Of a stretch of 64,000 bases of DNA, positions 1,016 through 15,661 are shown in pieces (position 1 is the stretch's first letter; each line of letters opens with the position of its first letter). The position numbers and the translations under genes are program-made. The DNA is from Alphaproteobacteria bacterium (GTDB lineage: Bacteria; Pseudomonadota; Alphaproteobacteria; GCA-2731375), in contig CBDDPY010000002.1 in NCBI GenBank assembly GCA_965232515.1, positions 7,104,001 through 7,168,000 on the forward strand, written 5' to 3'. A model generated the notes under the pieces. The model was not told where the DNA came from. It saw only the letters and a list, made by a program, of their open reading frames with translations, and did not search any database.

Positions 1016-1031
1016 TGGCACGGAACGTGCT
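1016..1031 (+). promoter_or_regulatory. Sigma-54 -24/-12 promoter upstream of the activator gene
   Basis: TGGCACGGAACGTGCT, GG-N10-GC spacing. Confidence 0.65.
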
Positions 1032-1140
1032 TCAAATTCCATGGGAGCGGCTGTGTGCTGACGGACGGAAAGAGCAGGAATGGCCTGTCGGTCGTCGCGC
1101 CGTTCGTCGCTAGGATACTGGCGGCGACGGGCCGGGGCGG

Positions 1141-2532
1141 ATGATCGGCATGGGCGCGCTCGAACCCGGATCGGCGCCGCGGAATCTGCTGTACTTTCAG
1201 CTGAGCGACAGCGCGATCGACACGGATGTACTTGGTTCGGCGGCGGATTCCCCATCGCTCGCGTCCGCCGGCTGGCAGGTGCACGCCACCGCGGACCGGC
1301 AGGGCGCGCGACGCTTGCTGGACGAACACGCCTTTGACGTCGGGCTGGCCTATCTGAACAACGACCCCGTCGATCGTATCCGCGCCGACATGGTGGCGCT
1401 TTGGCGCGCTGACGAAAACCTGCCCTGGATCGCCCTGCTGCCGCCCGAAGGCCGGCATGACGCCGAGGTCTGCCGGGTGCTCTGGGAGTCGTTCTACGAC
1501 TTCCACACCCTGCCGCCGGATATCGAGCGGTTGCTGACCACGCTGGGCCACGCCCATGGCATGGCGATGATCGCGCGCACCGCGTCGGAGGCGACGCCGG
1601 CGGAAACGACGGAACCGCAAATGGTCGGCGTCAGCCCGCCCATGCAGGCCGTGTTCCGCAACATCCGCAAGCTCGCCGGCGTCGACGCGCCTGTTCTAAT
1701 CACCGGCGAGAGCGGCACCGGCAAGGAGCTCGCGGCCAAGGCCATTCACGAACGCTCGCGCCGCGCGGCCGGGCCGTTCATCGCCGTAAACTGCGCGGCG
1801 CTGCCGGAAAACCTGATCCAATCCGAACTGTTCGGTCACGAGAAGGGGGCGTTCACGGGCGCGCACCGCCGAAAGACCGGCAGCATCGAGGCGGCGAGCG
1901 GCGGCACGCTGTTCCTCGACGAGATCGGCGACCTCACGCCCGAGCTTCAGGTCAACCTCCTGCGTTTTCTGCAGGAAGGAATGATCCAGCGGGTTGGCAG
2001 CCCGCAGGAGGTGCCGGTCGACGTCCGCGTGCTGGCGGCGACGCATACGGATATGGAGCGCGCGGTCGCCGAGAGCCGCTTCCGCGAGGACCTCTATTTC
2101 CGCCTCAATGTACTCCGGCTGGAGATGCCGCCGCTACGCGACCGCGGCGACGATATCGGCGTGCTGGCGCAGTATTGCTTCGACATGTTCCGGCACGAAA
2201 CCAGCAACCGGGTCCGGGGCTTGAGCCCCGGCGCCCTGCAGAGCATGGCCGAATACGATTGGCCCGGAAACGTGCGGGAACTGATCAATCGCGTGCGCCG
2301 CGCCACGGTGATGTGCGACGGGCGGCTGATCAAGCCGGCGGATCTCGGTCTGCACGCCCGCTCCCAGCCGGTGCGGATCGTCACCATCGAGGAGGCCGTG
2401 CGCCAGGCCGAGAAAGACGCCATTGAACGGGCGCTGGGCCGGACCAAGAACCTGTCGCAGGCGGCGCGCAGCCTGGGCACGTCGCGGCCGCGGCTCTACC
2501 GCTTGATGGCCAAGCACGGCATCCAGCCTTGA
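1141..2532 (+). CDS. Sigma-54-dependent enhancer-binding protein with VpsR-like atypical receiver domain and Fis-type HTH
   Basis: Walker A GESGTGKE, intact GAFTGA, Walker [17 protein letters not shown]-terminal [21 protein letters not shown]-terminal FYDFHTLP motif is typical of VpsR-related proteins. Confidence 0.92.
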
Positions 2533-2557
2533 ATGGCGGTGGATCTGCAGCGCGTTG

Positions 2558-2574
2558 TGTCCGCTGGCGTTACA
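2558..2574 (-). promoter_or_regulatory. Putative activator binding site (UAS), copy 1
   Basis: Reverse complement TGTAACGCCAGCGGACA, 159 bp upstream of the promoter at 2717. Confidence 0.75.
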
Positions 2575-2716
2575 GTTTGGCGCGCGAATCCGCTGGCGGT
2601 GCGCTCTCCGGTCGGCGACGGGTACGACCGCCCGAGGCGTAATGGCGACGGACGTGAGCAGAGCGTTGCATGTTCGGCCGGGGTACGGGATCGGCGCCGC
2701 ATGGCGGTTGATCGCG

Positions 2717-2732
2717 TGGCATGCTTTTTGCT
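2717..2732 (+). promoter_or_regulatory. Sigma-54 promoter for fapC-like copy 1
   Basis: TGGCATGCTTTTTGCT. Confidence 0.85.
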
Positions 2733-13417: not shown

Positions 13418-13423
13418 TGGCGC

Positions 13424-13439
13424 TGGCACGGAGTTTGCG
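13424..13439 (+). promoter_or_regulatory. Sigma-54 promoter for the PG-binding gene and possibly fapF
   Basis: TGGCACGGAGTTTGCG. Confidence 0.8.
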
Positions 13440-13560
13440 TGCCGTAAGGCAGGACAGGTGGCGGCCGAGGCGCTGAATGGGCGCATGCGCGCAAGCAATC
13501 CCGGCGCCACCGGCAGATGTACGATATCGGGGGGATATCGGGTCGAGAAGGGAGGCTGAT

Positions 13561-14169
13561 ATGGGTCCAGCACGAATGTTTGCGCGGCAGGCGATGGTGC
13601 TGTTCGTCGGGGTCATCGCCGGCTGGTCGACATTGACCCAGGCGGCGGACGACAGCGGTCAGTTCGCCATCAAAGGTGTCGGATTGCTCACCTGTCAGGA
13701 CAGCGTCGCCGCGCGCGAGGCAAAGTCCGGCCTGGATATCCGCTTCCGCAGCTGGATCGATGGCTATCTGACCGCGGTCAATCGCTACGAGCCGACGACC
13801 TACGATGCGACGCCGTGGGGAACGCCCGAGATCATCGCCACCATCGTCGACAATCATTGCCGCGACAATCCGGACGAGCGTTTCGTCATTGCCGTACAGA
13901 AGCTGGTCGCCACATTGCAGGCGGACAAGCTGACGACGAGCTCGCCGTTGCTGACGGTGGCCGTGGACGGCAAGCGGGTGCTGCTCTACGAAGCCCTGCT
14001 GCAGCGCGTTCAGGAGCGGCTGGCCGAGCGGGGGCTTTATCTGGGCAATGCCGACGGTGAATTCGGCCCGATGACGCAGCAGGCCATCGCCCTCTATCAG
14101 ATCAGCGAGGGTCTGGAAGGCACCGGACTGCCCGATCCGCTGACGGTTTGGAAGCTGGTGAAGCCCTAA
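13561..14169 (+). CDS. Secreted protein with a two-Cys helical domain and a C-terminal peptidoglycan-binding domain
   Basis: RBS GGAGG before ATG 13561. VQERLAERGLYLGNADGEFGPMTQQAIALYQISEGLEGTGLPD follows the PG_binding_1 pattern. Confidence 0.85.
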   Translation: MGPARMFARQAMVLFVGVIAGWSTLTQAADDSGQFAIKGVGLLTCQDSVAAREAKSGLDIRFRSWIDGYLTAVNRYEPTTYDATPWGTPEIIATIVDNHCRDNPDERFVIAVQKLVATLQADKLTTSSPLLTVAVDGKRVLLYEALLQRVQERLAERGLYLGNADGEFGPMTQQAIALYQISEGLEGTGLPDPLTVWKLVKP

Positions 14170-14356
14170 CAGGATCGTTGGCCGGCGCCATCTCGTCCGA
14201 TGCGGGTCGTCCCCGATACCGTTGTCGTCCGGGAGGCGGTTGGCGATCATCGGCGGCGGCACTTAAACGCATGCTTGGACAAATTGATTAGCAATTGCTA
14301 TAGGAGTGACGCGACTGACTTGCAGATCAAGCGAAGAAGTCTGAGGAAGAGGGCGC

Positions 14357-15661
14357 TTGAACAAACGATCATTTGCGTTTGTCTGCACCATTGCTTTCGC
14401 CGTCCCAGCGACCAGTATTGCTCAGGACGCGCAGCGAGAGCAGGCGCTGCAAGAGCAGGTCGAACGTTTAACCCGCGTTATTCAGGTTCAACAACGGGCG
14501 CTGCTTCAGCTTGAGCAGCGGCTGCGGGCGCTCGAGCAACGGCAGCCCGCGCCTGAGACGCCGCCGCCAGCCGCGCCGCCGCAGCCGCAAGCGCAGCCCC
14601 CGGCGCCGGAGCAGCCGCCTGCCGCACCGGCGCAACCGCCGCAACCCGAACTCGCCGATCGGGCCGCCGAGGAGGGTGAGGAGGAGCCCGTTAAACGCGA
14701 GGCCGAACCCTCGCGGGCGCTGGAGACGGTCGCCGGCGAGGCGCAGGGCTTTTTCGGCGAGCGCTATACTTTCGAGCCCAGCATCACCTATTCGCGCTTC
14801 GACCGCTCCGAAATCGGGTTGAGCGGGTTCCTGGCGCTGGACGCGATCTTTCTCGGCACGATCAGCGTCGACGAGGTCGAATCGGATATCGTGACCACGG
14901 ACGCGACCTTCCGCGTCGGCATCACCAACGATCTGCAGGTCGACGTCAACGTACCGTTCGTCTATCGCCAGTCGAACTTCGTCAGCGGCGGTGTCGGCGG
15001 CTCGGCATCGGGCCGGGCCGAGAGGGAGGTCGACGCCAGCAATCTGGGCGATATCGGTTTCGGCGTGAATTATCGGCTGTTCCGCGAAACCGAGGTCTGG
15101 CCCGACATCGTCGTCAATGCCCGCGGGCGGGCGCCGACAGGGCGGGACCCGTTCGGGATCGAGCTTCGCACCGTCGAAGGCACCCAGGGCAATCTGCAGG
15201 TGCCGGAACAACTTCCCACGGGCAATGGTGTCTGGCAGGCGTCGGCCGGCCTGTCGTTTCTGAAGACCATCGACCCGGCCATCCTGTTCGCCAGCATCAA
15301 CTACTTTCACAATTTCCAGAAAGGCTTCGACGATATCGATGCCGCCGACGGCGACCAGCCGGGCGACGTGGATCTCGGCGATTCCATTCAAGCCGGCGTC
15401 GGCATGGCCTTCGCCTTGAACGAGCGGCTCAGCCTGAGCCTGAGCTATACGCACCGCATCGTCGAGGAGAGCCGGACCAAATCGGACCTGGCCGACCGCT
15501 TCACCGAGGTCGTCGGCAGCGATGCCAACGTCGGCATTTTGAACACCGGCATTACCTACGCGATCACCGACAACCTGACCTTCGTCTCGAATGTGGGCGC
15601 CGGCCTGACCGAGGATGCGGCCGACGTCGAGATCCGGGTGTCGTTCCCCTACACCTTCTAG
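14357..15661 (+). CDS. fapF: FapF-like outer-membrane beta-barrel amyloid transporter
   Basis: Signal peptide, N-terminal coiled coil, Pro/Gln linker, LSGFLALDAIFLG, PTGRDPFGI, LPTGNGVW, C-terminal FPYTF. Confidence 0.9.
   Translation: MNKRSFAFVCTIAFAVPATSIAQDAQREQALQEQVERLTRVIQVQQRALLQLEQRLRALEQRQPAPETPPPAAPPQPQAQPPAPEQPPAAPAQPPQPELADRAAEEGEEEPVKREAEPSRALETVAGEAQGFFGERYTFEPSITYSRFDRSEIGLSGFLALDAIFLGTISVDEVESDIVTTDATFRVGITNDLQVDVNVPFVYRQSNFVSGGVGGSASGRAEREVDASNLGDIGFGVNYRLFRETEVWPDIVVNARGRAPTGRDPFGIELRTVEGTQGNLQVPEQLPTGNGVWQASAGLSFLKTIDPAILFASINYFHNFQKGFDDIDAADGDQPGDVDLGDSIQAGVGMAFALNERLSLSLSYTHRIVEESRTKSDLADRFTEVVGSDANVGILNTGITYAITDNLTFVSNVGAGLTEDAADVEIRVSFPYTF

What the first reader, a model, noticed from the sequence alone, without database searches (positions are those of the whole stretch)
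1016..15661. Expanded Fap-type amyloid system with six FapC-like subunits, each separately promoted
Seen: six secreted, Cys-free 277-285 aa paralogs with three GN(I/V)x(V/L)N...G..N.Q.N repeats, plus fapA/B/D/E/F homologs, two extra genes and a dedicated sigma-54 activator. Five paralogs form a tandem array with a period of about 1.1-1.2 kb. Each repeats the cassette UAS, sigma-54 promoter, RBS, gene, terminator. Established: the Pseudomonas system is a single fapABCDEF operon with one fapC. Inference: this locus either amplifies subunit output relative to one export machine or builds heteropolymeric, tunable fibres. Intergenic sequences differ between units, so an assembly duplication artefact is unlikely.
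Basis: partly seen in the sequence, partly recalled or inferred. Interest (0 to 1): 0.9.

Follow-up and report, generated by a model that had tools for sequence, protein, structure and literature searches.

The report
Multiplied biofilm amyloid subunit genes
This bacterium's Fap biofilm-fibre locus carries six copies of the main amyloid subunit gene instead of the usual one, each with its own promoter, and the copies share a core but differ in surface loops, which suggests mixed fibres.

Summary
Observation confirmed. This is a Fap-type amyloid locus (activator, fapC0, orfX, fapA, fapB, fapC1-C5, fapD, fapE, PG-binding gene, fapF), probably in an alphaproteobacterium. The subunits match solved FapC by sequence (E 3.5e-21) and predicted fold (Z 12). 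The locus holds 9 of the genome's 29 strict sigma-54 sites and all 7 exact copies of a 17-bp box; strong terminators follow C1-C5. It is not an artefact: dS is 0.38-0.66, dN/dS 0.12-0.26, and a related strain in another study bridges the C4-C5 junction. Less new than proposed: the activator is BrfA-type (known), the two extra genes recur at other fap loci, a single-copy relative already has the internal fapC promoter, and curli has multi-copy precedents. Added here: a second organism has 6-7 paralogs; three loop subtypes are shared between the two organisms while scaffold residues sort by organism. Best reading: one activator co-fires a multiplied cassette, giving more subunit and several subtypes with different loop charge. 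Amyloid formation, expression and co-assembly are untested. A published survey finds two fapB/C genes in 94.5% of clusters; this one has seven. Two look-ups in this scan's earlier notes showed no similar array.

The parts
1016..1031 (+). sigma-54-like -24/-12 site before the activator (GG-N10-GC, no upstream box found)
   Evidence: does not match the strict motif
1141..2532 (+). BrfA-type sigma-54 enhancer-binding protein (VpsR domain, AAA+ with GAFTGA, Fis HTH)
   Evidence: Pfam; groups with fap-linked activators
2558..2574 (-). activator box (distal type), 143 bp before the C0 promoter
2717..2732 (+). sigma-54 promoter of fapC0
2919..3752 (+). fapC0, divergent FapC-like subunit (277 aa, 46-47% to C1-C5)
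   Evidence: NCBIfam FapC E 1.6e-16; a C0-like gene (44%) follows the activator in G503
3791..3807 (-). activator box (distal type, one mismatch)
3947..3962 (+). sigma-54 promoter of orfX-fapA-fapB
4000..4383 (+). orfX, small protein with a signal-like segment, no family; weak likeness to the FapE N-terminus
   Evidence: homologs at other fap loci
4387..4908 (+). fapA-like chaperone
   Evidence: NCBIfam NF058617 E 4.1e-6, below cut-off
4927..5526 (+). fapB minor subunit
   Evidence: NCBIfam NF058557 E 1.4e-30
5542..5558 (-). activator box (distal type) for C1
5706..5721 (+). sigma-54 promoter of fapC1
5820..6659 (+). fapC1 (279 aa)
6688..6719 (+). intrinsic terminator after C1
6783..6881 (+). 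proximal box (6783-6799) and sigma-54 promoter (6866) of C2
6991..7830 (+). fapC2 (279 aa; Ser-rich, least acidic loops)
7850..7891 (+). intrinsic terminator after C2
7964..8062 (+). proximal box (7964-7980) and sigma-54 promoter (8047) of C3
8154..9008 (+). fapC3 (284 aa; acidic loops)
9028..9067 (+). intrinsic terminator after C3
9085..9183 (+). proximal box (9085-9101) and sigma-54 promoter (9168) of C4
9292..10134 (+). fapC4 (280 aa; acidic loops)
10155..10192 (+). intrinsic terminator after C4
10199..10295 (+). proximal box (10199-10215) and sigma-54 promoter (10280) of C5
10403..11260 (+). fapC5 (285 aa; acidic loops)
11281..11321 (+). intrinsic terminator after C5
11383..11479 (+). proximal box (11383-11399) and sigma-54 promoter (11464) of fapD
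11575..12300 (+). fapD, C39 peptidase
   Evidence: NCBIfam E 4.3e-79, Pfam PF03412
12509..13417 (+). fapE (start codon uncertain)
   Evidence: NCBIfam E 9.9e-25
13424..13439 (+). sigma-54 promoter before the PG-binding gene and fapF; no box found
13561..14169 (+). protein with a signal-like segment and a peptidoglycan-binding domain (ORF open from 13477; best RBS at 13561)
   Evidence: Pfam PF01471 E 1.3e-10; present in 7 of 45 other fap loci
14357..15661 (+). fapF outer-membrane exporter
   Evidence: NCBIfam E 2.3e-126; PDB 5o65 FapF E 6.4e-90

Best explanation
A Fap functional-amyloid system whose major-subunit transcription unit was multiplied in tandem and then kept. Shown by sequence: the relative's layout (box, sigma-54 promoter, fapC, hairpin) is repeated five times, and a sixth, older subunit gene (C0) sits behind the activator. 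Inferred from Pseudomonas: one BrfA-type activator binds the 17-bp box and fires the promoters together; subunits cross the inner membrane by Sec, are kept soluble by FapA, leave through FapF with FapD and FapE, and stack as three-layer beta-solenoids. Inferred here: the array raises subunit output relative to one export machine and also supplies several subtypes with a compatible core and different charge on the same loop of each layer (C1/C2 Ser-rich, C3-C5 Asp/Glu-rich), so the matrix holds mixed fibres or a fixed mixture of fibres.
For: Homology of all six Fap components; FapC at E 3.5e-21 and Z 12.0, rmsd 2.9 A over 145 of 150 residues. One box at 8 promoters, with the same spacing as in single-locus relatives (82-83 and 147-148 bp). 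All five tandem copies intact and under purifying selection (dN/dS 0.12-0.26, dS 0.38-0.66). Among C2-C5, 23 of 42 loop columns vary against 22 of 164 scaffold columns; summed loop charge is -5 for C1 and C2 and -11 to -12 for C3-C5. Against a second organism's paralogs, C2, C3 and C4 each have a reciprocal best partner (86, 91, 88%); 20 sites support these pairs, 0 support a conflicting pair, 10 sort by organism; 15 of 20 pair sites lie in loops against 1 of 10 organism sites (Fisher p 0.0014).
Against: No expression data: flat depth in the RNA-library contigs and 0 reads in two raw poly-A runs. The mosaic could be neutral, if gene conversion simply stops at indel-bearing loops. I chose the pairs after seeing the alignment, and C1 and C5 have no clear partner. 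The second organism's contigs were not seen; co-location rests on a shared longest-contig length and on locus tags. Even FapB/FapC heteromeric fibrils are unproven in Pseudomonas (bioRxiv 10.64898/2026.10.01.755530, passages). All components score below NCBIfam cut-offs.
Confidence: 0.55

Rival explanations
1. Pure dosage. The array exists only to raise subunit output; loop differences are tolerated drift left by incomplete gene conversion.
For: Same box and promoter type at every copy; fapD has its own copy of the promoter, which could scale export; cores nearly identical; copy number varies from 1 (L007) to 5 here and 6-7 elsewhere.
Against: Copies are old (dS 0.38-0.66) rather than a fresh amplification; loop subtypes are preserved between organisms with no conflicting site.
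Confidence: 0.25
2. Conditional alternatives. The paralogs are expressed at different activator levels or times and build separate fibre types.
For: Two promoter geometries: distal inverted box only (C0, orfX-fapA-fapB, C1) and proximal box only (C2-C5, fapD); leaders and spacers differ (mean column identity 54%); the same idea was proposed for extra curli genes (PMC3521004, passage).
Against: No second motif stood out in the spacer alignment; C2, the Ser-rich subtype, shares its promoter class with the acidic C3-C5.
Confidence: 0.13
3. The proteins use the Fap export route but build something other than free amyloid fibres, such as a cell-bound coat or sheath organised by the acidic N-terminal extension.
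For: About 50 N-terminal residues (net -8 to -10) lie outside the part that aligns to solved FapC and are poorly modelled; whole-protein net charge is -21 to -27; an extra peptidoglycan-binding gene lies before fapF.
Against: The three repeats match the published FapC motif; similar acidic extensions occur in single-copy FapC homologs.
Confidence: 0.06
4. Assembly artefact.
For: Repeated genes in one assembly; no long read spanning the whole array was seen.
Against: Copies differ by 13-21% in DNA, longest identical run 98 bp; spacers are distinct; a strain from another study covers 30 of 30 bins and one contig bridges C4 to C5 (10032-10597); a second organism has a similar paralog set.
Confidence: 0.01

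Closest known systems
Pseudomonas Fap system (fapABCDEF; FapC PDB 9u4u, 9nqd; FapF 5o65)
   Same: All six components in the order A-B-C-D-E-F; three-repeat FapC; predicted fold matches 9u4u at Z 12.0.
   Different: Seven fapB/C genes in one cluster (94.5% of 1172 surveyed clusters have two; PMC12392863); subunit genes appear monocistronic; about 50-residue acidic N-terminal extension; orfX and a PG-binding gene; activator upstream on the same strand.
BrfA/RpoN control of fap in P. fluorescens PF07
   Same: Adjacent sigma-54 enhancer-binding protein and -24/-12 promoter (PMC9207406). The activator matches 441-aa activators lying reversed behind fapF, the brfA arrangement and length, at E 3e-120.
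   Different: Nine strict promoters and eight boxes in one locus instead of one fapA promoter. BrfA itself was not fetched by name, and c-di-GMP binding was not tested.
Single-copy Pelagibius locus (L007)
   Same: orfX-fapA-fapB-[box pair, sigma-54]-fapC-fapD-fapE-PG-fapF; FapC 66% identical.
   Different: One fapC, both boxes kept as an inverted pair, no promoter before fapD.
Two- and three-copy fapC operons (L026, L036, L053) and a partial operon duplication (G665)
   Same: More than one fapC per cluster.
   Different: 56-68 bp spacers without a sigma-54 motif in L026 and L053; at most three copies; G665 repeats orfX-B-C-D-E as a block.
Curli systems with extra csgA/B genes (Spirosoma, Rhodopseudomonas)
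   Same: Up to six subunit homologs, proposed to modulate fibre properties (PMC3521004, passage).
   Different: Unrelated system; those copies are described as dissimilar and often in separate operons, whereas these are 75-89% identical, tandem and share one box.

Membership tests
Fap system | fapA, B, C, D, E, F homologs clustered | tested here: met
   NCBIfam hits for all six, FapA weak at E 4e-6
Fap system | Scores over NCBIfam equivalog cut-offs | tested here: not met
   All below cut-off, e.g. FapC 61-82 bits against 195; 15 of 22 matching genomes in a phylum sample also fall below
Fap system, canonical operon | Single fapABCDEF operon with one fapB and one fapC | tested here: not met
   Six fapC-like genes, internal promoters and terminators; filed as a variant for this reason
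FapC | Three imperfect repeats with the GN-psi-G-psi-N-psi..G..QxN motif | tested here: met
   18 of 18 repeats against the motif in PMC12392863 section 2.1
FapC | Three-layer beta-solenoid fold | tested here: met
   Model of mature C2, pLDDT 73; 9u4u Z 12.0, rmsd 2.9, 145 aligned, next hit Z 3.1. Only C2 was modelled
FapC | Sec signal peptide | tested here: met
   Hydrophobic stretch and AxA at residues 23-28 in all six; crude script test only
FapC | Forms extracellular cross-beta fibres | not testable with these tools
   Needs experiment
FapD | C39 peptidase with Cys-His-Asp | tested here: met
   PF03412 over cut-off; DFSCG, KHFVV and VADP motifs visible in the translation (residue roles recalled)
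FapF | Homology to the solved exporter barrel | tested here: met
   5o65 E 6.4e-90 over residues 112-434
BrfA-type activator | fap-adjacent sigma-54 enhancer-binding protein of the same clade | tested here: met
   GAFTGA present; clade of fap-linked activators, support 0.946 and 0.846 with the 441-aa reverse-strand activators, where one partial paralog of this genome also falls inside
BrfA-type activator | Senses c-di-GMP and binds the fap promoter | not testable with these tools
   Published for PF07 (PMC13101488, passages)
Curli (CsgA/B) | Curlin repeats | tested here: not met
   No Pfam family at E 0.1 for any of the seven subunits

The most novel reading that the evidence does not exclude
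The locus encodes a programmed heteropolymeric amyloid: six subunits with a co-homogenised stacking core and lineage-conserved loop subtypes co-assemble into one fibre, whose surface charge pattern is set by promoter class and strength under one activator. Such arrays may be commoner in Alphaproteobacteria than surveys show, because they break short-read assemblies.
Probability: 0.3. Interest if true: 0.78.

Novelty: new variant of a known kind. Interest (0 to 1): 0.58.

Why it matters
Specialists describe Fap as an evolutionarily fixed system with one fapB and one fapC (PMC12822426 section 7). This locus is a clear exception. It supplies a natural series of subunits with the same core and different loops, which makes two open questions testable: whether Fap subunits form heteromeric fibres, and what the exposed loops do. 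It also yields a sharply defined candidate binding site and geometry for a BrfA-type activator. If only dosage is involved, it is still an unusual but modest genomic variant.

Tried and rejected
Expression: contigs of two RNA-library runs cover the locus at 90-100% identity but at roughly flat or cross-mapped depth, which DNA carry-over would also give; two raw poly-A runs laid 0 reads. No conclusion drawn. First structure model (pLDDT 61) gave no Foldseek match at E 0.001; the deeper alignment did. No Rfam family in 1-18000; no sigma-70-type promoter; almost no IHF-like site between boxes and promoters (1 weak hit in 8 spacers; consensus recalled). Codon bias does not single out the subunit genes (0.76-0.88 against 0.66-0.82). 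orfX: only unnamed clusters. N-terminal domain of the PG-binding protein: no hit. No subunit match in 72,556 plasmids. Strict positional orthology with the second organism was dropped: a partial gene's truncated end suggests a different order, and that organism has two C3-type copies. Absence from relatives (0 of 60; 0 of 32 in the order) is not taken as proof of recent acquisition: the congener G001 has an 83% identical activator cut at a contig end. Host naming by housekeeping proteins failed.
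Full report
1. Observation. The region holds, on the + strand, an activator (1141-2532), fapC0 (2919-3752), orfX (about 4000-4383), fapA (4387-4908), fapB (4927-5526), fapC1-C5 (5820-11260), fapD, fapE, a peptidoglycan-binding gene and fapF (to 15661). The six subunits are 277-285 aa, Cys-free and strongly acidic; C1-C5 are 75-89% identical and C0 46-47%. tblastn with these proteins finds no further copies in the 7.39 Mb genome. 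A strict sigma-54 motif occurs 29 times in the genome, 9 of them here. A 17-bp box occurs exactly 7 times in the genome, all here, and once more with one mismatch. The five longest terminator-like hairpins follow C1-C5. Spacers are otherwise diverged, with box, promoter and RBS standing out.

2. Identity. NCBIfam gives FapA (4e-6), FapB (1e-30), FapC (2e-16 to 7e-23), FapD (4e-79), FapE (1e-24) and FapF (2e-126), all below the curated cut-offs. A profile of 37 close homologs hits only the two solved FapC sequences (E 3.5e-21). A model of mature C2 (pLDDT 73) aligns to FapC 9u4u at Z 12.0, rmsd 2.9 A, 145 of 150 residues; the next hit scores 3.1. Residues 1-50 are an acidic extension that is poorly modelled. 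The genome has rpoN. It has gcrA (where a control archaeon also rang) and its closest subunit homologs are labelled Kiloniellales and Pelagibius, so an alphaproteobacterial host is inferred, in a GTDB order other than that of Pelagibius.

3. Not an artefact. Synonymous divergence among C1-C5 is 0.38-0.66 and dN/dS 0.12-0.26. Contigs from two further studies, 90-100% alike, cover 30 and 27 of 30 bins, and one bridges C4 to C5. Six paralogous proteins share a longest contig of 75,208 bp, and a Kiloniellales MAG carries adjacent paralog locus tags; I did not see those contigs.

4. How common. Of 86 fetched loci from other genomes, 49 showed fapB, fapC and fapD together; after dropping 4 duplicates, 42 of 45 have one fapC, 2 have two and 1 has three. 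The multi-copy cases checked have 56-68 bp spacers without a sigma-54 motif. Genome samples: 3 of 401 in the class, 1 of 33 in the order, 2 of 127 in the order of Pelagibius, 22 of 401 in the phylum with the FapC family; the class, own-order and phylum counts include this genome, and only 5-6 candidates per genome were scored, so those are not copy counts. The published GTDB survey finds two fapB/C genes in 94.5% of 1172 clusters and one operon in 99.5% of genomes (PMC12392863); I could not see its Figure 1c, so the highest count it records is unknown to me. Relatives' loci often break at contig ends, so arrays may be under-counted.

5. What is old and what is derived. The activator, orfX and the PG-binding gene recur at 20, 3 and 7 of 45 loci (lower bounds, since contigs are short). 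BrfA and an RpoN promoter are published for Pseudomonas fap (PMC9207406; PMC13101488; PMC8202526), and this activator groups with fap-linked activators. The single-copy Pelagibius locus already has an inverted box pair and sigma-54 site before fapC and a hairpin after it; G503 has the same promoter and a C0-like gene behind the activator. So a separately promoted fapC and C0 are clade features; the derived step is tandem multiplication of a unit made of proximal box, promoter, gene and terminator, plus a promoter of that type before fapD (inference).

6. Mechanism. Variation among C2-C5 concentrates in the equivalent loop of each of the three layers (23 of 42 columns against 22 of 164 in the scaffold), and loop charge differs between C1/C2 and C3-C5. 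In a whole-protein tree most of the second organism's paralogs cluster together (support 0.93), yet C2, C3 and C4 each have a reciprocal best partner there: 20 sites support the pairs, none a conflicting pair, and 10 sort by organism, with pair sites in loops and organism sites in the scaffold (p 0.0014). That is what one expects if stacking residues are homogenised within a genome while loop subtypes are kept. It fits co-assembling subunits with different surfaces, but also neutral gene conversion that stops at indels; the pairs were chosen after inspection, and C1 and C5 have no clear partner. One shared box argues for joint activation; two promoter geometries leave room for different thresholds. 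I put co-expressed subtypes plus higher output at 0.55, pure dosage at 0.25, conditional alternatives at 0.13, a non-fibre structure at 0.06 and artefact at 0.01. Export, chaperoning and fibre formation are inferred from Pseudomonas (PMC12822426); none was shown here, and no expression evidence was obtained.

7. Literature seen. PMC3792158: parts 1-2 of 5. PMC6173800: part 1 of 6 and a term search; its spreadsheet supplement was too large and Figure 2 is not held, so alphaproteobacterial or multi-copy entries there may exist. PMC12822426: outline, the sections numbered 3, 6 and 7, a term search and a supplement search. PMC12392863: section 2.1 and passages. PMC9207406, PMC13101488, PMC8202526, PMC3521004 and bioRxiv 10.64898/2026.10.01.755530: passages only. 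Searches listed no paper describing a promoter-separated fapC array; the library lacks most subscription papers. For curli, up to six csgA/B homologs per genome and the idea that they modulate fibre properties are in print. Two look-ups in this scan's earlier notes showed nothing that bears on the finding.

8. Verdict. A real, rare and well-organised variant of the Fap system. The components and their regulator are known; the six-subunit, cassette-repeat architecture with conserved loop subtypes was not found in print. New variant of a known kind; interest 0.58.

Noticed in passing
G000:C2:6176050-6182938 (L111): A second Fap-like locus in the same genome: two tandem FapC-like genes, a FapB-like gene, FapD, an unknown gene, a substrate-binding protein and a convergent FapF, next to several LuxR-type regulators and a sigma-54 site. 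The genome thus has ten fapB/C-like genes.
   Followed up: partly
G000:C2:2785607-2790974 (L112): A third locus with a C39 peptidase, a FapF/FilC-like barrel, a PG-binding gene and two tandem 346-353 aa proteins of no family; Fil-like in layout.
   Followed up: partly
window 2558-11479: Promoter geometry splits in two: relatives carry an inverted pair of boxes (147-148 and 82-83 bp before -24); here C0, orfX and C1 keep only the distal box (140-148 bp) and C2-C5 and fapD only the proximal one (81-83 bp).
   Followed up: yes
L017, L039, L152 and others: The TGTAAC core occurs 18 times in 1.5 kb upstream of fapB in 20 distant fap loci (about 6 expected), at similar spacing in L017 and L039; it is missing from 8 of 20, including both loci with 441-aa reverse-strand activators.
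   Followed up: partly
window 4000-4383: orfX shares a short D-x(2)-L-x(2)-I/M-R-G-R motif with the FapE N-terminus (pairwise E 0.003), resembling a C39 leader (recalled); it may be a further FapD substrate.
   Followed up: partly
G503 C396 and C582; G001 C645: Fap loci of relatives break at contig ends inside fapC or the activator, and the Kiloniellales MAG paralogs include three partial genes; multi-copy arrays may be under-counted in short-read genomes.
   Followed up: partly
G665:C78 (L149): Partial operon duplication: fapB-C-D-E twice, each block behind a sigma-54 site, with one fapF.
   Followed up: partly
G000:C2, about 2.9-12 kb before the window: An ORF of at least 3046 aa resembling a large repetitive surface protein lies just upstream on the minus strand.
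   Followed up: no
window 15725-23018: An Xre-LuxR fused regulator, bacterioferritin and what looks like an iron-uptake cluster follow the locus (the iron-cluster label is recalled).
   Followed up: no
window 33549: A one-mismatch copy of the box (score 18.9) lies 18 kb downstream; not examined.
   Followed up: no
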